A stretch of 64,000 bases of DNA. Origin: an uncultured Alphaproteobacteria bacterium. Its GTDB lineage: Bacteria > Pseudomonadota > Alphaproteobacteria > CAAHEQ01 > UBA3637. The notes below the pieces were generated by a model, which did no database searches, was not told the origin of the DNA, and was given only the letters and a program-made list of their open reading frames with translations. The stretch is taken from positions 21,142 through 85,141 of the forward strand of contig CAKQGY010000003.1 in NCBI GenBank assembly GCA_934234055.1, given 5' to 3'. Below, in pieces: positions 12,646-55,687 of this stretch. Position 1 is the stretch's first letter; each line of letters begins with the position of its first letter. A program made the position numbers and the translations under genes.

Positions 12646-14817
12646 ATGTCAAAACAAATGCTTATTGATGCGACGCACGCCGAAGAAACGCGCGTGGTCG
12701 TGCTGGACGAGGGGAGATTAGACGAGTTTGATGTTGATACCTCTACCAAAAAACAAATCAAAGGAAATATCTATTTAGCCAAAGTGGTGCGCGTGGAACC
12801 GTCGCTGCAAGCCGCGTTCGTGGAATACGGCGGCAATCGGCACGGATTCTTGGCCTTTGGGGAAATTCACCCGGACTATTACCAAATCCCGGTGGCCGAT
12901 CGCGAAGCCATTAAAGAACAAATGAAAGCCGAAGCCGCAGCCGAAAAAGCGGCGCGTGATTCGGAAGAAGAAACCGAAACCGAAGATCAGGAAGTGGAAA
13001 CTGTCAGTGATGCCGAAGCCGATGATATGATTCGGCACCGCTCGTCATTCTATCGGAAATACAAAATCCAGGAGGTTATTCGCCAGGGGCAGGTGATGCT
13101 GGTCCAAGTGGTCAAAGAAGAACGCGGCAATAAAGGCGCGGCACTGACGACCTATTTATCCTTGGCCGGCAGATACAGCGTTTTAATGCCGAACAACGGA
13201 AAAGGCGGCGGTGTTTCGCGTAAAATCAATAATGTGAAAGAACGCAAAAGCCTGCGTGAAATTGTGGAAAAACTGCCGATCCCGGAGGGTATGAGCGTGA
13301 TTATCCGCACCGCCGGACAGGGTAAAACCAAAGCCGAAATTAAACGGGACTTTGATTACCTGATTAAAACCTGGATGCAGATTCGTAAGGAAACACTGGC
13401 CTCTATTGCGCCGAAACTGATCCACGAAGAAGGCGATATTATTAAACGCTCGCTGCGGGATGTCTTTACGCCCGATATTGACGAAATTATCGTGGAAGGT
13501 GAAGATGTCTTTAAGACGACAAAGGCATTTATGAAAATCCTGATGCCGGCGCAGGTCAAGAAAATTAAACAATACAAAGGGGAACTGCCCTTGTTCCAAC
13601 AATATATGGTGGAAGCACAGCTGGAAGCTATTCACAGTAATATCGTGCAATTGCGTTCGGGCGGGTATCTGGTGATTGATCAGACAGAAGCCTTGGTTGC
13701 GGTGGATGTGAACTCGGGCCGGGCAACGCGCGAACATAATATTGAAGAAACCGCGCTGCGGACGAACCTGGAAACCTGTGATGAATTGGCGCGGCAGTTG
13801 CGACTGCGGGATATGGCGGGCCTGATTGTGATCGACTTTATTGATATGGACGAACAACGCAATAACGCCGCGGTGGAACGACGCTTGAAAGAGGCTTTGA
13901 AACGCGATCGGGCGCGGATCCAGGTTGGGAAAATCTCGGGCTTTGGGCTGATGGAAATGTCGCGGCAACGGTTGCATTCCAGCTTTTTGGAAAGCAGTTA
14001 TCATATTTGTCCGCATTGCGGCGGAAAGGGCTTGGTGCGCTCAACGGAATCGTGTGCGATGCATGCGCTGCACATCTTGGAAGAAGTGGCCGCCAAAAAT
14101 AAAGGCGCTACCTTGGTGATGAGCTTGCCCTTGGAAGTTGCGGGATATGTGCTGAATATGAAACGCGAAACGCTGGGCGACTTGGAAAAACGATTCGGAA
14201 TTAAAGTTCAAATCTTGGCTGACACAACATTGGTGAAAGCGTCGGACTTTAAGATGGAACGAATCCGCGAAAACGGCGACCGCTGTGCGGTGTCGGTGCA
14301 ACCGAACATGCCGCGCAGATCCGATCGGAACAACTCGAAAATGCAATCTATTGACGCAATTGTGCAGGCCTCTATCGCCGAAGAAGAAGCGGAAGAAGAA
14401 GCCGGCGGGCGACGCGGGCGGCGGCGTAAACATCGGCGGCGCGATTGGAACCGTAAACAAAAACAGCTGGCAGAGGGACAGGCAGAGATGAATGATGCCC
14501 GAGAGGCTGAGACGGGGGTGGCCGACGTCCGAGAGACGGCTGAAAAAAGTGAAGAAAATTTTACGGTGGTGGAGCAAACATCGCTGCAAAATGAAGACAA
14601 ACCCGCCGGGAAAAAAGGAAAATATCGCGATCGCGGGCGGCGGCGTCGGGGACAAAAATCGACGGATAAGGCTTTGGTCCCGGCGCAGGTGTCGGCTCCG
14701 GCAGTGCGGGAAGAAAATGTGCCCGTCAAGGCCGAAATGCACCCGGTTCCGGTGGCGACAGATGAAGCCCCTAAATCAGCCAAAAAAGGCGGTTGGTGGA
14801 ATCGCTTGATGGGGTAA
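12646..14817 (+). CDS. rne: Ribonuclease E
   Basis: S1 domain, DNase I-like catalytic domain, Zn-link CPHCGG, then an Arg/Glu-rich C-terminal scaffold. Confidence 0.9.
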   Translation: MSKQMLIDATHAEETRVVVLDEGRLDEFDVDTSTKKQIKGNIYLAKVVRVEPSLQAAFVEYGGNRHGFLAFGEIHPDYYQIPVADREAIKEQMKAEAAAEKAARDSEEETETEDQEVETVSDAEADDMIRHRSSFYRKYKIQEVIRQGQVMLVQVVKEERGNKGAALTTYLSLAGRYSVLMPNNGKGGGVSRKINNVKERKSLREIVEKLPIPEGMSVIIRTAGQGKTKAEIKRDFDYLIKTWMQIRKETLASIAPKLIHEEGDIIKRSLRDVFTPDIDEIIVEGEDVFKTTKAFMKILMPAQVKKIKQYKGELPLFQQYMVEAQLEAIHSNIVQLRSGGYLVIDQTEALVAVDVNSGRATREHNIEETALRTNLETCDELARQLRLRDMAGLIVIDFIDMDEQRNNAAVERRLKEALKRDRARIQVGKISGFGLMEMSRQRLHSSFLESSYHICPHCGGKGLVRSTESCAMHALHILEEVAAKNKGATLVMSLPLEVAGYVLNMKRETLGDLEKRFGIKVQILADTTLVKASDFKMERIRENGDRCAVSVQPNMPRRSDRNNSKMQSIDAIVQASIAEEEAEEEAGGRRGRRRKHRRRDWNRKQKQLAEGQAEMNDAREAETGVADVRETAEKSEENFTVVEQTSLQNEDKPAGKKGKYRDRGRRRRGQKSTDKALVPAQVSAPAVREENVPVKAEMHPVPVATDEAPKSAKKGGWWNRLMG

Positions 14818-14833
14818 GACCCGGAAAAAATGG

Positions 14834-14868
14834 AAGCACCCCTTGGGAAACCGGGGGTGCTTTTTTGT
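14834..14868 (+). terminator. Rho-independent terminator of rne
   Basis: AGCACCCC...GGGGTGCT stem followed by TTTTTTGTG. Confidence 0.7.
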
Positions 14869-14869
14869 G

Positions 14870-14898
14870 TTGACAGGGGGATTCTTTTGGGCTAAAAT
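14870..14898 (+). promoter_or_regulatory. Near-consensus sigma70 promoter (TTGACA-N17-TAAAAT) driving the pilin-like gene leader
   Basis: Exact -35, 17-bp spacer, TAAAAT -10. Would give a ~190-nt 5' UTR that contains the conserved block and the CA tract. Confidence 0.5.
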
Positions 14899-14962
14899 GA
14901 GGGCTATGATAAAGCAAAAATGTAGTCAGATTGGGGTCAATTTTAAGGGGTGCGAATCGCGT

Positions 14963-15012
<50 letters not shown>

Positions 15013-15096
15013 GTTCTGGTGAGAAGAAAAATTTAAGCAGTCGGTTGCCGGGTGGCGACCGGCTGTATCTGTCTATAACCGAAAAGGAGAAATAAG

Positions 15097-17010
15097 ATGA
15101 ATACAAAGAAATCATATTTAGTGGATTGCCACGCCCCACAAGGGGGGCCCGCAATGACGGCGGGGAGCGAATCTGGTCGCACTTTGACCGAGATGCTGGG
15201 TGTGTTGGCGATTATGGGTGTGTTGACCATTGGCGGGATAGCCGGGTTTAACTGGGCGATGGACCGGTGGCGAGCGAATCGGATTATTGACGGGGTGGAA
15301 GAGCGAGCCTTGGTCGGGAGCCGGTTGCGCCTGTCCGGTATGAATAGGACAATGGAAATAGCAGATGCAGTGGTGGCTCAAACCGGGGGAACGATAGAGG
15401 ACTATGCCACGACGGTGAGTAATACGGGCTATAACGATGAGAAGACTTATTTTTCGGTGCAGGTAGCCGGAGTATCGCCGCAGGTGTGTGAGAATGTGAT
15501 GAACCTGAACTGGCAGTTGCCGGTGGAAGTGTATGCGGGGAATACCCAATATACGGGTGATACGGCGATTTGTGCCGGAGAGGGGACAGTGGATTTGACT
15601 TTTGTGTTTGCGGCGGATTTGATTACGAAGAAAGATGTGAAGGTGGTGGATCGGAACAATCCGACCTGTCAGCCGACACAGGTTTGGACCTGTAAGACGA
15701 ATGACGCCAACGGCTATAAATGCTGCACGGCGGGTATGTTGTGCAAGGCGGAGGAGGATACACTGCCGACAGGAGTGTTTTCAGAGAACAAGGGGAACTG
15801 TCCGCGCGGGACGCATCAGTGCCGGAATAATCAGTGCGTATGTCGCAAAAGTTGCCCGGCCGGCTATGAACAAGATCCAAAAACATGCGCATGCAGTTCT
15901 CAAACATGTGAAACCGGTGTTTGGAACGAAGCCAAAGGCGAATGCGTAGAATGTAATGAAGATACGGACTGTGCCACTCGCACCGACGGCAAGACAACCT
16001 GCGATACAGCGAGTAATGTGTGCAAGTGTCCGGCAGGTAAGGTTCCGAATGCCGACGGGACGGCTTGTGTGGAATGTAAAACAAACGCGGATTGTAAAAA
16101 TGCCTACAAGCCCGTCTGTAATACGGCGAATAACACTTGTGTGGGATGTACCGAAGATGCGGATTGCGCGGGAAATAGAATATGCAACACGGCAAATAAT
16201 ACTTGTAAATGCCCGGCTATGGGCACGAAGCCAACGGCCACTTGCTATACGGCCACGGAGCATGCGGCGACAGAGCAATGCCTGGCCTACACGACATATG
16301 AGCCTCTGATTTGCCCAGAACCTAAAACGGAATGCGATGTTGCCAACAACACTTGCAAGTGCCCGGATTGTCCGGCCGAGAAAATGACGCAAAATGAGGA
16401 TACCTGTGAGTGTATTTGTAATAATAACAAAGTGCTGAATGCAACTGGAACAAGATGTGTGGGGTGTAATACAGATGCTGATTGTGCCTGGCGCACAGAT
16501 GGAAGGACGAGGTGTGGTGTAAATTCCCACACTTGTGCATATGTAACATGTAGAAGCAATTCAGATTGTGCAGCGGGTCAATATTGTTCTATAGGGCCAA
16601 ATGATTGCAAAGATGGCACTTCTGGGGCGTGTAAAGAATTGGGAGAACGGATAGAGTTTGAAAATTATAATTTGCTATATTCTTCTGGTAATAGTGATAT
16701 GAACTGGATGTCGGCTGGGAACTGGTGTCAGGCCAATGGTAAAAAACTCGTTAGTGTAGATACATTGGTCAAAATTGCAGGGAGACCAACTTCTGAGTGG
16801 CACATAGCCGAGTATCAAGATGAACTTCACAGTGCATTTTACAAAGTCTTTGGAAATACAGATTTAGGCTTTTGGACTGACCAAGACTGTATGGGTTGCC
16901 TTGGCAGTCCTACCTGCCGTGCTGCGCTCTTAGGTTCTATTAATGCTACTGATGTTAGTTGGGTGACCTTTAATGATTGGCGTAATAAAATTAGAGCATT
17001 ATGTGAGTAG
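15097..17010 (+). CDS. Modular type IV pilin-like protein: class III signal + pilin head + Cys-rich repeats + C-type-lectin-like C-terminal module
   Basis: AAGGAG SD 8 nt upstream. N-terminus ...SESG|RTLTEMLGVLAIMGVLTIGGIAGFNWAM closely follows the G|FTLIELMIVVAIIGILAAIA pilin motif (Glu at +5). About 60 Cys in CxxC..DxDC..C.C repeats. C-terminus NWMSAGNWCQANGKKLVS...FWTDQDC resembles a CTLD. Confidence 0.6.
   Translation: MNTKKSYLVDCHAPQGGPAMTAGSESGRTLTEMLGVLAIMGVLTIGGIAGFNWAMDRWRANRIIDGVEERALVGSRLRLSGMNRTMEIADAVVAQTGGTIEDYATTVSNTGYNDEKTYFSVQVAGVSPQVCENVMNLNWQLPVEVYAGNTQYTGDTAICAGEGTVDLTFVFAADLITKKDVKVVDRNNPTCQPTQVWTCKTNDANGYKCCTAGMLCKAEEDTLPTGVFSENKGNCPRGTHQCRNNQCVCRKSCPAGYEQDPKTCACSSQTCETGVWNEAKGECVECNEDTDCATRTDGKTTCDTASNVCKCPAGKVPNADGTACVECKTNADCKNAYKPVCNTANNTCVGCTEDADCAGNRICNTANNTCKCPAMGTKPTATCYTATEHAATEQCLAYTTYEPLICPEPKTECDVANNTCKCPDCPAEKMTQNEDTCECICNNNKVLNATGTRCVGCNTDADCAWRTDGRTRCGVNSHTCAYVTCRSNSDCAAGQYCSIGPNDCKDGTSGACKELGERIEFENYNLLYSSGNSDMNWMSAGNWCQANGKKLVSVDTLVKIAGRPTSEWHIAEYQDELHSAFYKVFGNTDLGFWTDQDCMGCLGSPTCRAALLGSINATDVSWVTFNDWRNKIRALCE
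15124..15159 (+). repeat. Stem-loop element GATTGCCACG-(CCCCACAAGGGGGG)-CCCGCAATGACG inside the leader-peptide coding region
   Basis: One of at least four copies with conserved flanks and compensatory stem changes. Contains an in-frame ATG. Confidence 0.7.
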
Positions 17011-44953: not shown

Positions 44954-46207
44954 ATGACGAAACCGCAAACTTCCCGTGCGTGTGCCGTGCGCCTGTTGAC
45001 GCAGGTGTTGAATCACGGCCGGACAATAGAGCGCGCCGAAACGGCTGATCCCGGGACGCAAAAGTTGTCTGAATCGGATCGTCAATTTGTGCATTTAATC
45101 TTGCTGACAACGGTGCGTCGGTTGGGACAGATTGACGCGGTTTTGGGGCGGTTGTTGCGCAAGCCGTTGCGGGGTAAACTGGCTCCGGTGAATCAGATTT
45201 TGCGGATCAGTGTGGCGCAATACCTGTTTTTGAAAACGCCGGCCTATGCGGTGGTCAATACGGCGGTGGAACTGACGCGCGCGCTGGGCTTTGCAGGTAT
45301 GACGCGCCTGGTCAACGGGGTGTTGCGCACCTTGGAACGACAGGCAGATTCCCTGGCGGGGACAGAGGTTATTCAAAATATCCCGCTCTGGTTGCGACAG
45401 GTGTGGGAGGCTTATTACGGGCCGGATATGGTGCGTCAAACGGCCGAGGCGGTGCTGATCCCGCCGCCATTGGATATTACGGTGGCCGAAAACGCTGCGG
45501 ATCTGGCCCGGCGGTGGCAGGGAGTTGTATTACCAACCGGCGGGGTGCGGGTAGCGGCGGCCTCCCCCACCGAATTAGAGGGCTTTCAAACGGGTAAATG
45601 CTGGGTGCAAAACGGTGCTGCGTCGGTGCCGGCACAGCTGCTGGGTGATGTGGCGGGCTTGCGGGTAGCGGATTTATGCGCTGCCCCCGGAGGTAAGACG
45701 GCGCAACTGGCCGCCCGCGGTGCGCATGTGGCGGCCTATGACATCTCGGACAAGCGGCTGGAAAGACTGCGTGAAAATATGCGGCGCCTGGGCCTGGAAA
45801 ATCAAGTCTCGGTGCATTGTGGGGATATTTTGACCCTGACGGATCGGGACATTTATGATGCCGTGCTGCTGGACGCACCGTGTTCGGCGACCGGCACGAT
45901 TACCCGCCACCCCGAGGTGATGTATCACCAAACGCCCGCCGATGTGGCGCGCTTGGCCGAATTACAACGGCAAATGCTGCGTCAGGCGATTGCCCTGACA
46001 AAACCGGGGGGTAAAATTGTGTTTTCCACTTGCTCACTGCAACCCGAAGAGGGCGATGCCGTCGTGCAGGCGATGGGTGATCAAATCACGGTTATGCGTC
46101 CGACGGACGATCGCTGGAAACCGTTTTTAACGCCTTTCAGCAGCCTGCGATTCCTGCCGGCCATGGGGTATGACGGCTTTTACGCCTGCCTGATGCGCAG
46201 GCACTAG
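44954..46207 (+). CDS. rsmB: 16S rRNA m5C methyltransferase (RsmB/Sun family)
   Basis: NusB-like N-terminus, SAM motif DLCAAPGGKT, catalytic Cys in STCS. Confidence 0.8.
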   Translation: MTKPQTSRACAVRLLTQVLNHGRTIERAETADPGTQKLSESDRQFVHLILLTTVRRLGQIDAVLGRLLRKPLRGKLAPVNQILRISVAQYLFLKTPAYAVVNTAVELTRALGFAGMTRLVNGVLRTLERQADSLAGTEVIQNIPLWLRQVWEAYYGPDMVRQTAEAVLIPPPLDITVAENAADLARRWQGVVLPTGGVRVAAASPTELEGFQTGKCWVQNGAASVPAQLLGDVAGLRVADLCAAPGGKTAQLAARGAHVAAYDISDKRLERLRENMRRLGLENQVSVHCGDILTLTDRDIYDAVLLDAPCSATGTITRHPEVMYHQTPADVARLAELQRQMLRQAIALTKPGGKIVFSTCSLQPEEGDAVVQAMGDQITVMRPTDDRWKPFLTPFSSLRFLPAMGYDGFYACLMRRH

Positions 46208-46668
46208 GGCGCGGTGGGGGTGGCCTGTGCCTGTAAATGGCGTGTGATATATTGTAAAAACTCAACAAATGTTTGAAAAACAAACAAAGATTGATAGGTA
46301 AAGCGATCTAGTAAGCGGTATTCTTTGGTCGCAAAGTCATAGGTGATCAGTGTCTCCCACCCATAACCCAACAATAATTTTTTCTTCATCACGGCGTTGT
46401 TCTGGCAAAAAGCATAGTGCTGCAAAATGCCGGGGTGCGTAAAGGCGCCTTTGTTGCGTTCAATGTTGTTCAGGGCAAACAGGGTTATCCCGTTCCAAAA
46501 CAGGCCGTTCGTTGCCCCCAAAAACGACACATAATCCAGCGGAATGGGGGGCACCCCCGCTTTGACCAGCGTGACCGAGGCTTGCTGAACGGTTTTGGGA
46601 TCCACGGGCGGGAAAACCACCGCATAGTGCTCGTATAAGCATTTCAGGCATTTATTGAGTTCTGACAT
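46204..46668 (-). CDS. SUKH (Smi1/Knr4)-like putative immunity protein
   Basis: PIPLDYVSFLGATNGLFWNG matches the SUKH-1 LPxDYxxFLxxxNGG core. Last gene of the T4CP operon. Confidence 0.4.
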   Translation of the reverse strand: MSELNKCLKCLYEHYAVVFPPVDPKTVQQASVTLVKAGVPPIPLDYVSFLGATNGLFWNGITLFALNNIERNKGAFTHPGILQHYAFCQNNAVMKKKLLLGYGWETLITYDFATKEYRLLDRFTYQSLFVFQTFVEFLQYITRHLQAQATPTAP

Positions 46669-46671
46669 TTT

Positions 46672-47352
46672 TTACCTCCCCGGCATACTGCGCAGCGCCA
46701 AATCGCGCAAAGCATTTTCCGAAAAACCGGCCACAACACTGCGGTCTTGCTTGTTCTTACCACCCGATCCCGTCAGCAGCCCCAACGGAATATACACTTT
46801 ACCCGTCGGGACGGGGACATACAATTGCGCCGGGGTCAGAGCGCCCTCGGGGCCCAAAATCTGTTTGTTCAGATACAGATGTATCAGCTCGTGAAACGGG
46901 CGAGCCTGAATAAACACCAGGTTTTCAAAATCAACCTTACCGCCGTAATCCAGCGGATACTTCAAATGCACGGTAAAGTTCTCGGGGATTTGGCCGTGCT
47001 TCATATAGAACAGACCCTCTTCCGTAACGCCGGCCGCGCGCAGGTCATTCGCGTGGTGATAGGATAAAAAGCGCGTAAAATCGCGAATCGTGCGGTTCAG
47101 GAACTTTTGCCGGGCGACAAAATCGGCGGCTTCGTCCGGATAATAGGGCACAACCATCAGGTCCATACCCGGAAAGTTCATCTCGTTAAACAGGGACTCC
47201 CAATGGGATTGATCTTGTTCGGCCAACTCCAAACCGTCCATAAAGTGGTCGTCCATCACCGGGGCTTGCAGCAACCTGTCCCAATCGGCAAAAATATCCG
47301 TTGCGTTCAACGACGCGGACAGAGACATTTGTTGGGTGTCATTTTCAGCCAT
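46672..47352 (-). CDS. Hypothetical protein with an HExxH motif (candidate metallopeptidase-type toxin or effector)
   Basis: ARPFHELIHLY. No other recognisable family. Lies between the T4CP and the SUKH-like gene with 3- and 12-bp gaps. Confidence 0.35.
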   Translation of the reverse strand: MAENDTQQMSLSASLNATDIFADWDRLLQAPVMDDHFMDGLELAEQDQSHWESLFNEMNFPGMDLMVVPYYPDEAADFVARQKFLNRTIRDFTRFLSYHHANDLRAAGVTEEGLFYMKHGQIPENFTVHLKYPLDYGGKVDFENLVFIQARPFHELIHLYLNKQILGPEGALTPAQLYVPVPTGKVYIPLGLLTGSGGKNKQDRSVVAGFSENALRDLALRSMPGR

Positions 47353-47364
47353 GGAATCCTCCTA

Positions 47365-49548
47365 TCAGGTTTTGTTTTCTTCGTCCAACTCCACAATATC
47401 GCCTTGCACCATTGCTTTCAGGGCGGACATATCCGCTTCTTCACGCTGGGCCACAATCCAATACGGCACAAACGGCGCGGTTTTAAGAGCACACTTTTTG
47501 CGCATCTTCTTGTCCAAATACCACCGGGGCGCATCGGCCAAAATCGGGCGGTTTAAAAAGCCCTGGAACAAGACATATTGCTTTAACATATCCAAGCTCA
47601 TCATATCCGAGGCACCCACCACACTGGAACTTTGCAGCGACCGCGACACATTCGCCGCGAACGGGTTGGTCTGCATAGAGACCCCCTCGGTGCGCGAAGA
47701 ACTGGCCACTTCAATCGTGCGCGACCCGATCATCTTGGAGAATCGCTCGGCGGTTTGTTCGTTGTTCTGAGCCAGAATGACTTTGGCAGCCGTTGTCGTA
47801 ATAATCGTTTCCAAGTCGTCCTTACCATACTGCCCCGAGATCTGCCCCAAATCCTGTCCGATCAGCAGGTAAGACACCTTTTGTCCCCGCCCGACAGCCG
47901 GCCCGTCCTTGACCGCCGCCAGTTTCGGCATTTGCGGGAATTCATCCAGCACGAATAACACCGGGTAGGGGCCGACTTTGACCCCGTCGGCGGCAATATC
48001 ATTCGGCTTGTTGGAAATCAGGTAAGAACTCATCAATTCCACAAACACGCCGGTAATCACATTCAAGGTTTTGGCATCCACCTGATTGACCGACAGGTAA
48101 ACGGTGATCGGCTTCATTTCGCCTGTCACGGGATCCACCATACCGCGCAAGTCCTTAAATGTAATATCGCTGAACTTGGTGCGGGCGCGCACGGCCGAGT
48201 TTTTGAAAATGTTGATTCCGGTAAAGGCAGTGGATAAAATAGATCCCCGCTCTTTATCGGGCGTGCCGGCCAACTGACTCAGTTCAACCACCGCCCGGCG
48301 GGAATAGCCGAAACGCTCGGCCTCGGCAATCGCGATTTTCAAGGCATCACCCTGCGCATCGGCAAATGCGGCGGCCTGATCGCCCTCGTCCTGCCGGCGT
48401 TTGAGGTCGGCATTGACACGCATTTGTATGTCGGTCCACCAGTCAAAAATCATCGCGATGCAGGGTTCGTTGCCTTGCCAACTTTCGGGCAGACTTTCCC
48501 AAGTTCCCACCGGCGCATAATTTTCGGTCGTCAGCGTCCCGCCCTTTAAGGCCTCCAACGCAATCCGTGCGCTGGGGTCCGTCATATCCATATAATAGGT
48601 TTCCAGCACCTCGGCATCGTCCTTGTCAAACGATCCTTCACTCAGCTTTGCCAGAAAATAGTCGTTTGCCCGGGCGCGCTCACACTTGCTGCAAATAAAG
48701 TGTAAAAAGCCCGACATGGCGTTTCGGCCGGTTTTGGACCAGTGCGGATCTGCGCCGCCTTTTGGCTCCTCTACCAATACAGCAACCATTGAGTCAATAT
48801 ACATATCCCGCGACGGACCCAGTGGCGGCAAACAACTGGCCGACAGAGGGTTCCAGCTGGGGTAGTAGGTTCCCTTGGCCGGGTCATCTTCCGCCCCCCA
48901 GTTGATTACGAACACGGGCCCCTGCGTCGCCCGATAGCCCGAGGTATTATAGCACAATTCCGGCTTGGGGTCGTTGACAATCAGGCTCAGCCCCGGTGAC
49001 TCTAAAATCGTCGGAATCACGACGCCCGCGGTTTTACCGGTTCCCGGAGGCGCCACCACCAACGCCGATAAAGTTTCCGGCATTTTCAACAGCTTGCCCT
49101 TAAACCGCCCCAGCACAATCACAAACCCGTCAAACAGCTTCATTTTTTTGACATCTTCATAGGTTGCCTTGCGCCCGCCGCCAAACACATTCGGCGTGTA
49201 TTTATAGGGGTTTGTGACAATCCGATAGATAAAGAAAGTGAACGCAATCACAAACGATAAATAGGGCAAATACAACACGGGTGATCCCGACCGATCCATA
49301 CGGGCCAACTGCCGATAACTTTGGAACTTGTCCCACAGAACCGTCGGCTTCCAGCCTCGAATCCAGAAATGCCACGCTTTGGACAGCTCGTCAATGCTTA
49401 AACCGTTAAAGAACCACTGCGTCATCGGTATGAACAGCAGCAGCAACAGCCACGCAATCACCAGCGTAAAAAAGATGCTCCATAAAATGCGGGCAACAAA
49501 TTTTACCTGTTCGTCATAAGCCTCATCTCGTTTGAATGCCATAATCAA
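47365..49548 (-). CDS. virD4: Type IV secretion coupling protein (VirD4/TraG family ATPase)
   Basis: Two N-terminal TM helices. Walker A VVAPPGTGKTAGVVIPT (compare VirD4 LVVAPTRSGKGVGVVIP). Walker B LFVLDEFPQMPKL. Confidence 0.8.
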   Translation of the reverse strand: MIMAFKRDEAYDEQVKFVARILWSIFFTLVIAWLLLLLFIPMTQWFFNGLSIDELSKAWHFWIRGWKPTVLWDKFQSYRQLARMDRSGSPVLYLPYLSFVIAFTFFIYRIVTNPYKYTPNVFGGGRKATYEDVKKMKLFDGFVIVLGRFKGKLLKMPETLSALVVAPPGTGKTAGVVIPTILESPGLSLIVNDPKPELCYNTSGYRATQGPVFVINWGAEDDPAKGTYYPSWNPLSASCLPPLGPSRDMYIDSMVAVLVEEPKGGADPHWSKTGRNAMSGFLHFICSKCERARANDYFLAKLSEGSFDKDDAEVLETYYMDMTDPSARIALEALKGGTLTTENYAPVGTWESLPESWQGNEPCIAMIFDWWTDIQMRVNADLKRRQDEGDQAAAFADAQGDALKIAIAEAERFGYSRRAVVELSQLAGTPDKERGSILSTAFTGINIFKNSAVRARTKFSDITFKDLRGMVDPVTGEMKPITVYLSVNQVDAKTLNVITGVFVELMSSYLISNKPNDIAADGVKVGPYPVLFVLDEFPQMPKLAAVKDGPAVGRGQKVSYLLIGQDLGQISGQYGKDDLETIITTTAAKVILAQNNEQTAERFSKMIGSRTIEVASSSRTEGVSMQTNPFAANVSRSLQSSSVVGASDMMSLDMLKQYVLFQGFLNRPILADAPRWYLDKKMRKKCALKTAPFVPYWIVAQREEADMSALKAMVQGDIVELDEENKT

Positions 49549-49557
49549 CCCCTCACA

Positions 49558-50667
49558 CTAAAATAAATCGCGCACGGCTTCCAGCACCGTCGCATCGCCT
49601 TTGTCCGCCGCTTTGGGCAGCGCTTGTTCAAAGGACGGCAATTCTTCCGGTCCGCCCAGGTCTGTCCGACAGACCACAACTCCCTGCCGTTTCCAGGTCT
49701 CGCCCATGTCGGCCGCATTGATAATCGTGCCGTTCTTTTCTATCAGCAGAGGGAACACCTCTTGCGCCAAGCCCGCGCTTTTCAGTTTTTGAGCCAACGC
49801 CCCTGCCTCGGTCCGCAGTTGATATACCGGTGAAATCCGATGCGAGCTTTCCGAAAACCATAGCGGTTCTTCATCGTTAAAGAACTCCTCATCGGCCAGC
49901 CAATCGCCTTTTTCCGTATCCGTCAGGCACAGGACAACCTTGTCCGTGGCAATGCCGATGTAGTTGATGAACAGTTTATTCAACTGCACATCTTTGACAA
50001 CCTGATAATTCCCCGCGAACAAAATCGCCACCAAATCCTCTTCCAAACGCACCGGTTCAGGCAATTGAATCTGATCCAGCGGCATATTGCTGATATCCTC
50101 GTCCATAAAGGCCGGCCGAGTGGTCTCTTCCGCTTCGGGCGCGGCTACGGGAATGGGCTCGGCCATCGGTGTTGGCGCAGGGGCCGCGGGCACGGTGGCC
50201 GGCTCGGCAAACGCAGCGTCCATTGTGCGTCCCGCCACTTTGGCCGAGGGTCTTCCCACAGACGCAATCGGCCGCGGGCGCACTTTTTTGTGCGAGGCTT
50301 TGGCTTTAATTTTAACTTGATTTTTAATAATCTTGTTCGGGTTCGGCCGAAAGAAAAACGATTTGACCTTGCGAAACACGATCATAAAGGATTTGCGCCA
50401 TTGAATCTGATAGGATCCCCACCAAATCAGCATAAACGCCGGAATCATCAGCAGCACGGTAATTACGAAAATCCAATCACCGGTGGTATTGATAACCCAG
50501 CCCGAGCGAAACTCGTTCCACACATAGCGCCAATTATCCCAGGAGAAAATGTTAAAGCACCAATTTTGCCCGTAAAAACTACGCAGATACCACCCGAAAT
50601 AAAATATTCCGATGACCGCTCCGACCACAAGTGCACGTCTCAATTTTTTCATAACAGACCTTTCCAA
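49558..50667 (-). CDS. Hypothetical membrane-anchored protein (first gene of the T4CP operon)
   Basis: N-terminal TMs, a central Ala/Pro-rich linker and an acidic C-terminal domain. No family recognised. Confidence 0.4.
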   Translation of the reverse strand: MERSVMKKLRRALVVGAVIGIFYFGWYLRSFYGQNWCFNIFSWDNWRYVWNEFRSGWVINTTGDWIFVITVLLMIPAFMLIWWGSYQIQWRKSFMIVFRKVKSFFFRPNPNKIIKNQVKIKAKASHKKVRPRPIASVGRPSAKVAGRTMDAAFAEPATVPAAPAPTPMAEPIPVAAPEAEETTRPAFMDEDISNMPLDQIQLPEPVRLEEDLVAILFAGNYQVVKDVQLNKLFINYIGIATDKVVLCLTDTEKGDWLADEEFFNDEEPLWFSESSHRISPVYQLRTEAGALAQKLKSAGLAQEVFPLLIEKNGTIINAADMGETWKRQGVVVCRTDLGGPEELPSFEQALPKAADKGDATVLEAVRDLF

Positions 50668-50759
50668 TGTTCGTTTGAATCCAGTATAGCCGAAAATCTG
50701 CCGAAAAACCAGAAAAAAATGACAATTTATTCATTTTTATGGCGTGTGCAGGATTATAC

Positions 50760-50788
50760 TTGACAAAATAAGCGGTTTCGGATACAAT
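50760..50788 (+). promoter_or_regulatory. Predicted sigma70 promoter TTGACA-N17-TACAAT
   Basis: Consensus -35 with 17-bp spacing, upstream of the OM protein gene. Confidence 0.45.
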
Positions 50789-50823
50789 GTCGCACATCAA
50801 AAACCAAAACAAAGGACTGCAAA

Positions 50824-54173: not shown

Positions 54174-54316
54174 TCTAATTGCTGATGAGCAGAAAATTTC
54201 AGTCAGTCGGTCGGTCGCCTGCGGGCAGGGACGACCGGTTGCTGGCGTATACGAACGGTGGACGACCGAAAGGTGGTCTGCCGTTTGAAATTATTCAAAA
54301 CGAAAAGGAGACAACT

Positions 54317-55687
54317 ATGAAAACAAAACACATCAATTCAATATGTCATTCTGAGCGGGCCTTGTGCACTGAAGAATCCATAATCAAGGATTCATTATTA
54401 AATGGATTGCCACGTCCCACAAGTGGGCTCGCAATGACGCCCGGGAACGAATCCGGCCGGTCTCTGGTGGAAATGCTGGGGGTCTTGGCCGTCATGGGTA
54501 TCCTGACGATCGGCGGAATAGCCGGGTTTAATTACGCCATGGATAGATCCAAAGCCAACGATATTTTGGACGGCGTGAACAAGCGCGCAATCGCCTTGTC
54601 GTCTTACCTGATGCTGGGAACGAACATTTCGGCCACGACCCTGGACGCCGAGTTTTCCAACCATATCGGTGATGCGACGGTGGCTTTAAGCCCTGCCGGC
54701 TCGGGGTTCAAAATGACGGTCTCGGGCCTGACGGACTCCGTGTGCGACCAAGTCCTGACCAACGGCCTGAAAATGGCGTCCGAGATTACATTGGGCGAGA
54801 CCAAAATCTGGGACCGGGGCGTCAAGTCCGATCACACCTGCGCCGACAGCGATAACACGATTTCTTTTTCATTTAACGCTGCACTAAACGGCGCTCAGTC
54901 CGCCACCAATGATACCCCCGCGGGGCCCAACGCAGGCACCTGCACCGGGAACGGCGGAACATGGAACGCGGATACAGGTTCGTGCACTTGCCCGGGTCGC
55001 TACACGGGCGTAAATTGTGAAGTCGCCCCGACCGCCTGCCCCGAGGGCGCCACCCCCACCGCCGACGGAAAGTGTCAGATGTGTAAACCAGGAAATGAGG
55101 ATTGTGCTACCTGTGAAGTGACGGAAGAATTTGCTTGTTTTAGTGAGTGTAAGTGTGTAAAACCAGGTAGCGAGTGTACTGATGTATGTTCTCTTGGTTG
55201 GGCAGACACCGTCGCCTGTGTAAATGGAAAATGTGTCTGCGATAATGCAAATGCTGTTTGGGTGACAGAATTTGGGGATGAAGGGCTGACTTTTGGGGAA
55301 TGTGTGATTCCCACCGAAGAACACCAATGCTTTACAAATAAGGATTGCGGGCAGAGTGAATACTGTGATGTTACAATGGAAAGACGCTCTTGCCAAGCAT
55401 TACCGGCTATGACCGAACAAGGCGGGGTTTTGGTCAGCCAAGAGCCCGTGAATTACTATGCGGCTCAAAATATATGCGAGGGTTATGGTAAAAGGCTTCC
55501 GAGTACTTCTACATATGACTTCGGCAAAGCACTTGAAAAATCAAATGGCGAGCCCTTTTGGGTGAAAGGTGGACGAATGGGGGTTTGCCCAGATGCAGAT
55601 GCAAATAATTGTAAGGATGTAGACGAAGAAATGGAAATCTATAATGGCCTTGGAGATGGCAAACATCATACATTGATTTGTATTTAA
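54317..55687 (+). CDS. Modular type IV pilin-like protein paralog: long leader + pilin head + EGF-like/Cys-rich region + lectin-like C-terminal module
   Basis: AAGGAG SD. ...NESG|RSLVEMLGVLAVMGILTIGGIAGFNYAM is near-identical to gene 1. EGF-like CTCPGRYTGVNCE. C-terminus NYYAAQNICEGYGKRLPS...FWVKGG is the shared lectin-like signature. Confidence 0.6.
   Translation: MKTKHINSICHSERALCTEESIIKDSLLNGLPRPTSGLAMTPGNESGRSLVEMLGVLAVMGILTIGGIAGFNYAMDRSKANDILDGVNKRAIALSSYLMLGTNISATTLDAEFSNHIGDATVALSPAGSGFKMTVSGLTDSVCDQVLTNGLKMASEITLGETKIWDRGVKSDHTCADSDNTISFSFNAALNGAQSATNDTPAGPNAGTCTGNGGTWNADTGSCTCPGRYTGVNCEVAPTACPEGATPTADGKCQMCKPGNEDCATCEVTEEFACFSECKCVKPGSECTDVCSLGWADTVACVNGKCVCDNANAVWVTEFGDEGLTFGECVIPTEEHQCFTNKDCGQSEYCDVTMERRSCQALPAMTEQGGVLVSQEPVNYYAAQNICEGYGKRLPSTSTYDFGKALEKSNGEPFWVKGGRMGVCPDADANNCKDVDEEMEIYNGLGDGKHHTLICI
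54405..54439 (+). repeat. Stem-loop element GATTGCCACG-(TCCCACAAGTGGGCT)-CGCAATGACG inside the leader coding region
   Basis: Same flanks as 15124-15159, read in a different codon frame. Inner stem CCCAC/GTGGG. Confidence 0.7.

What the first reader, a model, noticed from the sequence alone, without database searches (positions are those of the whole stretch)
46204..50667. Stand-alone VirD4/TraG coupling protein in an operon with an HExxH protein and a SUKH-like immunity protein
Four tightly packed minus-strand genes with 3-12 bp gaps: a membrane protein (369 aa), a T4CP with VirD4-like Walker A and B (727 aa), a 226-aa protein with FHELIH, and a 154-aa protein whose core PIPLDYVSFLGATNGLFWNG resembles SUKH/Smi1-Knr4 immunity proteins. 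No VirB/Tra pore genes are present in 64 kb. The arrangement resembles T4SS-delivered interbacterial toxin/immunity pairs (X-Tfe/X-Tfi-like) or a cargo module that uses a T4SS encoded elsewhere.
Basis: partly seen in the sequence, partly recalled or inferred. Interest (0 to 1): 0.65.

Follow-up and report, generated by a model that had tools for sequence, protein, structure and literature searches.

The report
Secretion coupling operon with tamed toxin pair
Four packed genes in an uncultured gut alphaproteobacterium encode the substrate-recruiting ATPase of a type IV secretion system whose other parts probably lie elsewhere in the genome, together with three fixed partner proteins, two of which descend from a DNA-cutting toxin and its antidote although the toxin copy has lost its catalytic histidine.

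Summary
The four minus-strand genes are real, 3-12 bp apart, and sit among housekeeping genes. No type IV secretion system (T4SS) pore gene lies in the 64 kb.

- **Conservation:** the same cassette, in the same order, occurs in about 80 species of gut and rumen Alphaproteobacteria. It sits in different chromosomal places and the four genes co-diverge.
- **Gene B (727 aa):** a true VirD4/TraG-family coupling protein (T4CP).
- **Gene A (369 aa):** a two-pass membrane protein with a cytoplasmic PD-(D/E)xK (NERD-like) fold whose catalytic residues are not conserved.
- **Gene C (226 aa):** not an HExxH protease. FHELIH is the HxxxH end of an HNH motif. C is homologous to the C-terminal DNase domains of RHS, LXG, PT-HINT and MuF polymorphic toxins. 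Every cassette copy has Leu/Ile/Val where those toxins have the catalytic second His.
- **Gene D (154 aa):** a YrhA/SUKH protein, the family that follows those toxins as their immunity gene.

The T4CP is probably not truly stand-alone. In relatives, VirB6 (x3), VirB8 (x2), VirB9, VirB10 and VirB11 genes lie beside the cassette.

Best reading: this is the coupling module of a dispersed, vertically inherited VirB/D4 system. Its accessory subunits include a domesticated toxin-immunity pair. I rate it a new variant of a known kind, of moderate interest.

The parts
49558..50667 (-). Gene A: inner-membrane protein. It has two N-terminal TM helices with a Trp-rich loop between them, a low-complexity basic linker, and a cytoplasmic PD-(D/E)xK / NERD-like domain (about residues 205-369).
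47365..49548 (-). Gene B: type IV coupling protein of the VirD4/TraG family, with N-terminal TM segments, Walker A/B motifs and a TraG-D_C domain.
   Evidence: Pfam T4SS-DNA_transf E 3.2e-53, TraG-D_C 2.9e-22, TrwB_AAD_bind 1.3e-19. It falls far below every NCBIfam equivalog cutoff. More than 1780 homologues were found, and the top 120 are 62-100% identical. 357 species representatives carry a relative. The nearest plasmid T4CPs are about 35% identical and sit in virB2-B11/D4 clusters.
46672..47352 (-). Gene C: HNH-fold protein derived from a polymorphic-toxin DNase family. The metal-ligand His129/His154/His158 and Asn144 are invariant. Leu130 occupies the catalytic second-His position. The C-terminal tail GSGGKNKQDRS...MPGR is conserved but predicted disordered.
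46204..46668 (-). Gene D: YrhA-family / SUKH-superfamily protein, homologue of the immunity genes that follow HNH toxins of the C family. Its stop codon overlaps the stop codon of the convergent rsmB gene.
   Evidence: NCBIfam YrhA family E 1.9e-14 (53.8 bits, cutoff 55) and Pfam SMI1_KNR4 E 0.026. Pairwise BLASTP E 2e-7 and 2e-6 to YrhA proteins encoded just downstream of the Bacillus LXG and Photobacterium HNH toxins. Present after C in 81 loci.
50668..50823 (.). Intergenic region upstream of gene A, divergent from the DUF3078 outer-membrane gene. It is the presumed promoter region of the four-gene operon.
   Evidence: Inference from gene layout only. The consensus scan finds a strong sigma-70-like site only on the + strand (50760-50788) and none on the - strand.

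Best explanation
The locus is the coupling-protein module of a chromosomal, vertically inherited VirB/VirD4-type T4SS. The other genes of that system are dispersed around the genome of an uncultured gut alphaproteobacterium.

**Shown**
- B is a VirD4/TraG-family ATPase.
- A, C and D are co-inherited with B in every species examined.
- C and D are homologues of an HNH DNase toxin and its YrhA/SUKH immunity protein.
- C has lost the catalytic His.
- T4SS channel genes lie next to the cassette in related species.

**Inferred mechanism**
- A (two TM helices plus a degenerate PD-(D/E)xK domain) and the B hexamer sit together in the inner membrane.
- The C-D heterodimer is a domesticated toxin-immunity pair that docks on the cytoplasmic face of B, possibly through the invariant disordered C-terminal tail of C.
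- C-D acts as a fixed adaptor, regulatory subunit or constitutive first substrate that helps feed cargo to the VirB channel. This makes the four proteins a lineage-specific type IV coupling complex, analogous in role (not in ancestry) to DotL-DotM-DotN-IcmSW of Legionella.

**Sub-confidences**
- T4CP module of a dispersed T4SS: about 0.8.
- C-D derived from a toxin-immunity pair: about 0.9.
- C is no longer an active DNase and serves as a structural or adaptor part: about 0.5.
For: - **Family of B:** T4CP Pfam domains score well above threshold.
- **Conservation:** the A-B-C-D order holds in about 80 of 80 species loci, in differing chromosomal neighbourhoods.
- **Co-divergence:** pairwise identities co-vary (Spearman rho, B vs C 0.81, B vs A 0.62, B vs D 0.60).
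- **No island signature:** GC is like the flanks, and there is no tRNA, integrase or relaxase nearby.
- **T4SS genes beside the cassette in relatives:**
  - Two to three tandem TrbL/VirB6 genes (Pfam E 6.6e-10) in at least 10 species and in metagenome contigs.
  - TrbI/VirB10 (E 2.2e-32) plus VirB11 (E 7.7e-24) directly upstream in L010, whose T4CP is 81% identical to the window's.
  - VirB8 x2 plus VirB9 in L073, and VirB8 in L069.
- **C is toxin-derived:** profile and pairwise homology to RHS, LXG, PT-HINT, PT-TG and MuF toxin C-termini. D-like YrhA genes follow those toxins.
- **Catalytic residue lost:** the second His of the HH dyad is L/I/V/M/R/Q in 81/81 loci orthologues and L/M/I in 119/120 database orthologues. 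Most of the more distant relatives whose motif could be read keep HH (72 HH against 37 non-His, 39 unreadable). PMC3113570 states that this second His directs the hydrolytic water.
- **A is degenerate too:** it has the PD-(D/E)xK fold but lacks conserved catalytic residues.
- **Conserved non-catalytic surfaces of C:** the N-terminal YWExLFNEMNFPGMDLM segment and the invariant C-terminal tail are absent from the toxins.
Against: - No T4SS channel gene was shown in this genome. Only 64 kb is available and whole genomes could not be scanned.
- VirB4 and VirB2 were not seen in any locus of the clade.
- Loss of the second His predicts loss of DNase activity but does not prove it. All three metal ligands and the Asn are retained, so a changed activity (another base, a nickase, or binding only) is possible.
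- Keeping an immunity-type partner in every species is what one expects if C is still toxic.
Confidence: 0.55

Rival explanations
1. C is an active T4SS-delivered antibacterial (or anti-host) nuclease effector. D is its immunity protein and secretion chaperone. The T4CP recognises C, perhaps by its basic C-terminal tail, and passes it to a VirB channel encoded elsewhere.
For: - C belongs to a family of bona fide polymorphic-toxin C-terminal domains.
- The toxin-then-YrhA gene order with a 3-bp gap is the classic toxin-immunity layout.
- The metal-binding His129/His154/His158 and Asn144 are invariant.
- D is retained in all species.
- C lies immediately downstream of the T4CP.
- PMC3113570 suggests that SUKH proteins may also guide toxins to export machinery.
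- Basal Rickettsiales are proposed to use their T4SS to kill other bacteria (PMC11077975).
Against: - The catalytic second His is replaced by an aliphatic residue in essentially all cassette orthologues.
- The pair is monomorphic: one copy per genome, co-diverging with the T4CP (rho 0.81). C (mean 49% identity) is more conserved than A or D. That is the opposite of the diversification and cassette swapping typical of interbacterial toxins.
- No additional orphan immunity genes or toxin cassettes lie nearby.
Confidence: 0.25
2. An autonomous membrane DNA-handling machine that does not need a VirB channel. The T4CP would act as an FtsK/HerA-like DNA pump, with a membrane PD-(D/E)xK protein and an HNH protein as DNA-binding or DNA-cutting partners. 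Its role would be defence against incoming DNA, DNA uptake or DNA export.
For: - The window has no channel genes.
- Most loci show the cassette alone among housekeeping genes.
- Two nuclease folds accompany a DNA-translocase-family ATPase.
- There is a weak PADLOC hit to mad8, E 2e-4.
Against: - Both nuclease folds look catalytically degenerate.
- There is no significant match to any known defence system.
- Presence in every species examined with vertical inheritance is unlike a defence island.
- VirB6/8/9/10/11 genes adjoin the cassette in several relatives.
- The nearest T4CPs belong to ordinary virB/D4 clusters.
Confidence: 0.08
3. A remnant or working part of a conjugative or mobilisable element. 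The T4CP would couple DNA to a conjugation pore, with C as an accessory nickase or DNA-binding factor and A as an exclusion or anchoring protein.
For: - The closest annotated T4CPs (35% identity) are in conjugative-type virB clusters on alphaproteobacterial megaplasmids.
- Pfam names the family 'conjugative DNA transfer'.
- A ribbon-helix-helix gene, a type common among relaxosome accessory factors, precedes the cassette in about 30 loci.
Against: - No relaxase, integrase, oriT-like repeats, tRNA target or compositional island is at the locus.
- The cassette lies between core genes in many different arrangements.
- It is found in 357 species representatives at 60-90% identity, consistent with vertical descent and not with mobility.
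Confidence: 0.07

Closest known systems
Legionella Dot/Icm type IV coupling complex (DotL-DotM-DotN-IcmS/IcmW-LvgA-DotY/DotZ; PMC7280309)
   Same: A VirD4-family ATPase is encoded next to, and presumably works with, a membrane-anchored partner that has a cytoplasmic domain. Small soluble partner proteins recruit substrates. The gene order, with the membrane partner followed by the T4CP, resembles icmP(dotM)-icmO(dotL).
Xanthomonadales antibacterial X-T4SS with X-Tfe/X-Tfi effector-immunity pairs (PMC8740702)
   Same: A chromosomal VirB/D4 system. A toxin-family protein with an adjacent immunity-family gene is associated with VirD4.
   Different: X-Tfes are many, variable and scattered. They carry an XVIPCD domain of about 120 aa that binds the VirD4 all-alpha domain. 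Here there is one fixed pair inside the T4CP operon, only a 36-aa conserved tail, and the catalytic His is lost. VirD4 is not in a virB cluster in the window.
HNH DNase polymorphic toxins with YrhA/SUKH immunity (Bacillus LXG T7SS toxins, RHS/T6SS toxins, IncHI2-plasmid HNH-YrhA pairs; SUKH concept in PMC3113570)
   Same: The C core (residues about 55-190) and D are homologous to these toxin and immunity domains. Gene order and spacing are the same.
   Different: Toxins have VHHKLP with the catalytic second His, and mostly end right after the domain. C has VHLKYP, an extra N-terminal conserved segment and a conserved C-terminal tail. C is not fused to any trafficking domain (LXG, RHS, PAAR), and is fixed next to a T4CP.
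Rickettsiales vir homolog (rvh) T4SS (PMC2653234, PMC11077975)
   Same: A chromosomal, vertically inherited alphaproteobacterial VirB/D4 system. Its genes are split over several loci and some components are duplicated. Relatives of the window show three tandem enlarged VirB6 genes and two VirB8 genes flanking a small ORF, followed by VirB9.
   Different: The hosts are gut and rumen MAGs labelled only 'Alphaproteobacteria'. The T4CP is separated from VirB10/B11 by extra genes, or moved elsewhere entirely. The A, C and D partners are not described for rvh. Orthology to rvh genes was not tested.

Membership tests
VirD4/TraG type IV coupling proteins | Pfam T4SS-DNA_transf / TraG-D_C / TrwB_AAD_bind domains above gathering score | tested here: met
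   181.7, 79.4 and 70.8 bits against cutoffs of 20.1, 22 and 20.5.
VirD4/TraG type IV coupling proteins | Walker A and Walker B NTPase motifs and N-terminal membrane anchor | tested here: met
   APPGTGKT and VLFVLDEF are read in the translation, together with two hydrophobic N-terminal segments. No TM predictor was run.
VirD4/TraG type IV coupling proteins | Orthology to a characterised subfamily (NCBIfam equivalog cutoffs for VirD4, TraG, TraD) | tested here: not met
   The best hits are CD1115-type at 137 bits (cutoff 250) and VirD4 PRK13897 at 123 bits (cutoff 728). There is no PDB sequence hit at E<=0.01. It is a divergent subfamily.
VirD4/TraG type IV coupling proteins | A mating-pair-formation / VirB channel in the same genome | not testable with these tools
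   The channel is absent from the 64-kb window. It is present beside the cassette in related species.
HNH / His-Me finger nucleases | beta-beta-alpha-metal fold | tested here: inconclusive
HNH / His-Me finger nucleases | Metal-ligand residues and structural Asn (first H of the dyad, N, HxxxH) | tested here: met
   H129, N144, H154 and H158 are invariant in 28 sequences.
HNH / His-Me finger nucleases | Catalytic second His of the HH/DH dyad, which activates the water | tested here: not met
   Leu130 occupies this position in the window. It is L/I/V/M/R/Q in 81/81 loci orthologues and L/M/I in 119/120 database orthologues. It aligns to the second H of toxin VHHKLP. The role of this residue is stated in PMC3113570.
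Zincin (HExxH) metalloproteases | Invariant catalytic Glu in HExxH and a third zinc ligand downstream | tested here: not met
   Position 155 is E/D/T/S among orthologues. There is no peptidase Pfam or NCBIfam hit. The motif lies in the helix of an HNH-like unit.
SUKH superfamily / YrhA family immunity proteins | Family profile match | tested here: inconclusive
   NCBIfam YrhA scores 53.8 bits against a cutoff of 55 (E 1.9e-14). Pfam SMI1_KNR4 scores 15.6 bits against 25.4. Pairwise E is 2e-7 and 2e-6 to annotated YrhA proteins.
SUKH superfamily / YrhA family immunity proteins | Encoded immediately downstream of a nuclease-toxin-family gene | tested here: met
   A 3-bp gap follows C. The same HNH-then-YrhA layout occurs in Bacillus, Photobacterium and Enterobacter records.
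SUKH superfamily / YrhA family immunity proteins | Neutralises a cognate toxin | not testable with these tools
   This needs co-expression or binding assays.
PD-(D/E)xK nucleases / NERD domain | Restriction-endonuclease-like alpha/beta fold | tested here: met
PD-(D/E)xK nucleases / NERD domain | Conserved catalytic D ... (D/E)xK residues | tested here: not met
   The beta2 Asp is N/Q/T/A/S in the window's subclade and no Lys is conserved after beta3. Assignment was by eye on the alignment and secondary structure, not by superposition.
X-Tfe/X-Tfi effectors of antibacterial T4SS | C-terminal XVIPCD domain that binds VirD4 | not tested
   No XVIPCD profile was available. C has only a 36-aa conserved tail after the HNH unit.
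X-Tfe/X-Tfi effectors of antibacterial T4SS | Multiple variable effector/immunity pairs per genome | tested here: not met
   There is a single fixed pair per locus that co-diverges with the T4CP.
Legionella-type T4 coupling complex | DotM-, DotN-, IcmS/W-like partner folds | tested here: not met
Known anti-phage defence systems (PADLOC) | Significant match of the components to a catalogued system | tested here: not met
   The only hit is a weak mad8 match of the T4CP P-loop region, E 2e-4. A, C and D have none.

The most novel reading that the evidence does not exclude
An order-level clade of uncultured gut and rumen Alphaproteobacteria has built a new kind of type IV coupling complex. It permanently recruited a polymorphic-toxin HNH DNase with its catalytic His removed, the toxin's SUKH/YrhA immunity protein, and a membrane-anchored degenerate PD-(D/E)xK protein as core subunits of VirD4. 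This would be toxin-immunity domestication into secretion machinery, serving an rvh-like, genome-dispersed T4SS outside Rickettsiales.
Probability: 0.4. Interest if true: 0.7.

Novelty: new variant of a known kind. Interest (0 to 1): 0.52.

Why it matters
T4CPs decide what a type IV secretion system exports. Outside Legionella, Helicobacter and a few plasmids, their accessory partners are poorly known.

This study finds a fixed four-gene coupling operon in hundreds of uncultured gut species, with partners of clear but unexpected ancestry: a disarmed DNase toxin, its antidote, and a degenerate restriction-enzyme fold. It gives concrete, testable candidates for substrate recruitment.

If confirmed, it would be a clean example of a toxin-immunity pair domesticated into a machine. 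It would also show that an abundant but uncharacterised group of mammalian gut Alphaproteobacteria keeps a conserved T4SS, with features recalling the Rickettsiales rvh system. That bears on how these bacteria interact with hosts or neighbours.

If C is instead still a toxin, it would be an unusually conserved core T4SS effector.

Tried and rejected
- **HExxH metalloprotease for C:** rejected. The Glu is not conserved and there is no peptidase hit.
- **Known defence system:** PADLOC gave nothing significant.
- **Phage families:** PHROGs gave only two weak unknown-function hits for C.
- **PDB sequence searches:** the four single proteins and the C profile found nothing useful.
- **Tox-REHH (2026 preprint):** read as a possible identity for C. 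Not pursued, because REHH is described as lacking structural similarity to known nucleases and has different immunity families.
- **Exact-sequence lookup of the window's T4CP:** failed because public gene calls start 2 codons later. Solved by using P0001.
- **VirB6 alignment of 12 sequences:** too divergent for the locus scan. A 5-sequence alignment worked, but it showed that the VirB6 operon ends after three copies, with no VirB4 within 10 kb.
- **Five unannotated genes upstream of the VirB6 triplet in L093:** no Pfam hit.
- **afdb50 fold library:** unavailable.
- **Promoter and terminator scan:** uninformative.
- **Identifying the Bacillus plasmid LXG toxin as YokI:** could not be established from the paper and is not claimed.
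Full report
**1. The observation**

The four minus-strand ORFs exist exactly as described:

| Gene | Coordinates | Length |
|---|---|---|
| A | 49558-50667 | 369 aa |
| B | 47365-49548 | 727 aa |
| C | 46672-47352 | 226 aa |
| D | 46204-46668 | 154 aa |

- The gaps between them are 9, 12 and 3 bp.
- Public gene calls on identical contigs start A and B at ATG codons 5 and 2 codons further in.
- The stop codon of D overlaps the stop codon of the convergent rsmB gene.
- The flanks are core genes. On one side lie the dcw cluster (murG, murC, murB, ddl, ftsQ, ftsA, ftsZ) and rsmB. On the other lie a DUF3078 outer-membrane protein, mscL, yggU and xth.
- GC content of the cassette (0.51-0.55) matches the flanks. 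The only tRNA is 11 kb away.
- Other large ORFs of the window are housekeeping genes: cysS, xseA, dus, amiC-like, RNase E/G, transketolase, a histidine kinase and mutS.
- tblastn with VirB2-B11 of an alphaproteobacterial plasmid, and with VirB6/8/9/10/11 of relatives, finds nothing in the 64 kb.

So the observation, including "no pore genes in the window", is confirmed.

**2. Where it comes from and how conserved it is**

- The T4CP has more than 1780 homologues in the protein collection. The best 120 are 62-100% identical, and those with a name are "MAG: Alphaproteobacteria bacterium".
- In one-genome-per-species contigs, 357 stretches encode a relative. The best 80 are nearly all gut, rumen or faecal Alphaproteobacteria MAGs from human, roe deer, sheep, yak, buffalo, rabbit and horse.
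- In these loci the four genes occur in the same order, wherever the contig is long enough.
- The surrounding genes differ between lineages. In the window it is rsmB/ftsZ. In L004 it is proS and an outer-membrane gene. In L006 it is anmK and a prophage. Other loci differ again.
- Mean pairwise identities are B 69%, C 49%, D 38% and A 35%.
- Divergence of A, C and D tracks that of B, with Spearman rho of 0.62, 0.81 and 0.60.

This is a vertically inherited unit, not a mobile island and not a swappable toxin cassette.

**3. The four proteins**

*Gene B*
- It passes Pfam T4SS-DNA_transf, TraG-D_C and TrwB_AAD_bind, and has Walker A and B motifs.
- It is far below every NCBIfam equivalog cutoff and has no PDB sequence hit. 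It is therefore a divergent VirD4/TraG subfamily.
- Its nearest annotated relatives (35% identity) are the T4CPs of canonical virB2-virB11-virD4 clusters on Erythrobacter and Sphingosinicella megaplasmids. Those clusters lack A, C and D.

*Gene A*
- The AF2 model is confident (pLDDT 82.9). It shows two long N-terminal TM helices with a conserved Trp-rich loop, an amphipathic basic helix, a disordered variable linker and a well-folded C-terminal domain.
- The positive-inside rule puts this domain in the cytoplasm (inference).
- The usual catalytic Asp is Asn in the window and Q/T/A/S in its subclade. No ExK lysine is conserved.
- The most conserved stretch is instead an acidic-aromatic loop, GDWLADEExFNxExPLWFSESxHRxSP.
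- A is not DotM-like.

*Gene C*
The invariant residues are H129, L130, K131, P133, Y136, G138, N144, H154 and H158. That is the pattern H-x3-P-x4-G ... N ... H-x3-H of a cysteine-less, colicin-type HNH motif.
- In the AF2 model (pLDDT above 85 for residues 50-190), a beta hairpin (126-130 and 145-149) is followed by a helix (150-165).
- The stronger evidence is from sequence. A profile of C orthologues finds 533 cluster representatives.
- Beyond the cassette orthologues, the matches are the last 120-150 residues of longer proteins. These carry RHS repeats, PT-HINT, PT-TG or MuF domains, plus sub-threshold Pfam HNH hits exactly over the motif.
- tblastn on plasmids hits a Bacillus "T7SS effector LXG polymorphic toxin" (pairwise E 5e-17, 32% identity) and "HNH endonuclease" genes of Photobacterium and IncHI2 plasmids.
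- C is therefore a member of a polymorphic-toxin HNH DNase family.

*Gene D*
- It matches NCBIfam YrhA family at E 1.9e-14, 1.2 bits under the cutoff, and Pfam SMI1_KNR4 weakly.
- In all three annotated toxin loci examined, the gene immediately after the HNH toxin is a 152-168-aa "YrhA family protein".
- D aligns to two of them at E 2e-7 and 2e-6.
- C-D is thus homologous, as a pair, to an HNH-toxin/YrhA-immunity module. This fits the SUKH concept of PMC3113570.

**4. The twist: the toxin copy is disarmed**

- The toxins read ...QVHHKLPLDDGGTNDFxNLVLI...PYH..., while cassette proteins read ...TVHLKYPLDYGGKVDFENLVFI...PFHELIH.
- The second His of the HH dyad is Leu in the window.
- Across 81 loci orthologues this position is L (61), I (12), V (5), M, R or Q (one each), and never His. 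In 119 of 120 database orthologues it is L/M/I.
- Among the 148 more distant cluster representatives examined, 72 keep HH, 37 have a non-His residue, and 39 could not be read with the motif pattern.
- PMC3113570 states that in the HH/DH dyad the first His chelates the catalytic metal and the second His directs the water for hydrolysis.
- Cassette C proteins therefore keep the three metal ligands and the structural Asn but lack the catalytic residue.
- They have also gained features absent from the toxins. One is a conserved N-terminal segment (YWExLFNEMNFPGMDLM). The other is an invariant but predicted-disordered C-terminal tail (TGSGGKNKQDRS...MPGR).
- C is more conserved than its "immunity" partner, the reverse of an arms-race pattern.

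**5. Is the T4CP really stand-alone?**

It is not stand-alone in the clade as a whole.

- **VirB6.** In a deep-branching subgroup, the cassette is divergently adjacent to two or three tandem enlarged TrbL/VirB6 genes of 441-871 aa (Pfam TrbL E 6.6e-10 and 6.9e-06, both above threshold). This subgroup also carries two A paralogues and two K/E-rich proteins. A metagenome scan centred on these VirB6 genes shows the same layout.
- **VirB10 and VirB11.** L010 has a T4CP 81% identical to the window's. There, a giant protein ending in a TrbI/VirB10 domain (E 2.2e-32) and a VirB11 ATPase (T2SSE E 7.7e-24) lie directly upstream. They are separated from A-B-C-D only by a DnaJ-domain gene, an RHH_4 gene and a 78-aa ORF.
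- **VirB8 and VirB9.** In L073, VirB8, a 71-aa ORF, VirB8 and VirB9/CagX lie 4-9 kb upstream. L069 has a VirB8.
- **Not seen.** VirB4 and VirB2 were not found in any locus, and whole genomes could not be scanned.

The most economical reading is a chromosomal VirB/D4 system whose genes have been scattered by rearrangement. The tandem VirB6 and doubled VirB8 recall the Rickettsiales rvh system (PMC2653234; PMC11077975). For the window's own genome this is an inference.

**6. How it most likely works**

*Shown:* family assignments, co-inheritance, toxin-immunity ancestry, loss of the catalytic His, and T4SS genes beside the cassette in relatives.

*Inferred:*
- A and the T4CP hexamer sit in the inner membrane.
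- The C-D pair binds the cytoplasmic face of the T4CP, with the invariant tail of C as a candidate docking peptide.
- C-D serves as a fixed adaptor, regulator or constant first substrate.
- Together the four proteins would form a lineage-specific coupling complex, comparable in role to DotL-DotM-DotN-IcmSW (PMC7280309).
- PMC3113570 already proposed that SUKH proteins can both neutralise toxins and guide them to export machinery, with Syd/SecY as a precedent.

*Rivals:*
- Active effector plus immunity, probability 0.25. This is favoured by the retained metal site and the retained immunity-type partner.
- Autonomous DNA-handling or defence machine, 0.08.
- Conjugative remnant, 0.07.

**7. Comparison and novelty**

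- B is a member of the VirD4/TraG family but not of any characterised subfamily.
- C belongs to the HNH-toxin family by descent but fails the catalytic-residue test.
- D is a YrhA/SUKH relative at the threshold.
- A has the PD-(D/E)xK fold without the catalytic signature.
- The locus does not fit X-Tfe/X-Tfi. It has a single invariant pair, the C tail after the HNH unit is only 36 aa against about 120 aa for XVIPCD (no XVIPCD profile was run), and VirD4 lies outside a virB cluster.
- It does not fit the Dot/Icm coupling complex either, because the partner folds are unrelated.
- I found no paper describing this operon.
- It is best called a new variant of a known kind: a T4CP with a novel accessory set.

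**8. Verdict**

Interest is moderate (0.52). The components are individually familiar, and the missing T4SS is probably just elsewhere in the genome. The fixed, disarmed toxin-immunity pair and the degenerate nuclease anchor welded to a conserved T4CP across a whole uncultured gut clade are unexpected and testable.

Noticed in passing
L010:19-7638 (+): A giant ORF of more than 2200 aa runs off the locus start. It has about 16 'beta-flower' repeats (Pfam Bflower_2 E 7.9e-68) and a C-terminal TrbI/VirB10 domain, and is followed by VirB11. A VirB10 with such a large repeat extension is unusual.
   Followed up: partly
L066:722-4997, L071:76-5801, L087:7312-13312, L090-L095: Three tandem, enlarged TrbL/VirB6 paralogues (441-871 aa) have a conserved 68-95-aa ORF between the second and third. 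Together with VirB8, a 71-aa ORF, VirB8 and VirB9(SPOR) in L073:884-4107, this resembles the duplicated, scattered rvh T4SS of Rickettsiales, but in gut and rumen Alphaproteobacteria. Orthology was not tested.
   Followed up: partly
e.g. L009:2252-3213, L012:7800-8756; 37 and 30 loci: A DnaJ-domain gene (about 182 aa, opposite strand) and an RHH_4 ribbon-helix-helix gene (about 93 aa, same strand) lie directly upstream of the cassette in many species. They may be a regulator pair. They are absent next to the cassette in the window.
   Followed up: partly
L056, L063-L073, L078-L083 (e.g. L066:5183-9862 and 13904-15581): The deep-branching subgroup has two tandem paralogues of gene A. Two Lys/Glu-rich proteins of about 380 aa without Pfam hits lie upstream, and two tandem DUF1189 membrane proteins lie downstream on the opposite strand.
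   Followed up: partly
L093:424-8055 (+): Five consecutive genes (1005, 261, 409, 358 and 387 aa) immediately upstream of a VirB6 triplet have no Pfam hit. They are candidates for very divergent T4SS components.
   Followed up: partly
L019, L049, L061, L085: Contigs carrying this alphaproteobacterial cassette are deposited under 'Lactobacillales bacterium' or 'Holdemanella biformis'. These are probably binning or labelling errors in public MAGs.
   Followed up: no
L098:1019-3376, L099:1808-3383, L100:2462-3409: The same HNH-toxin subfamily plus a YrhA gene occurs in three settings: a Bacillus LXG toxin locus next to bsrG/yolD, a Photobacterium gene near RHS and Hcp genes, and a small stand-alone pair between IS elements on IncHI2 plasmids found in hundreds of Enterobacteriaceae records.
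   Followed up: partly
window 15097-17010 (+): A 637-aa ORF between the RNase E/G gene and the transketolase region has no Pfam hit at E<=1e-5.
   Followed up: no
window 54179-55687 (+): This 502-aa TTG ORF has no Pfam hit. Public gene calls on identical contigs instead place two minus-strand genes (246 and 159 aa, no Pfam) in this region, so the long ORF is probably spurious.
   Followed up: partly
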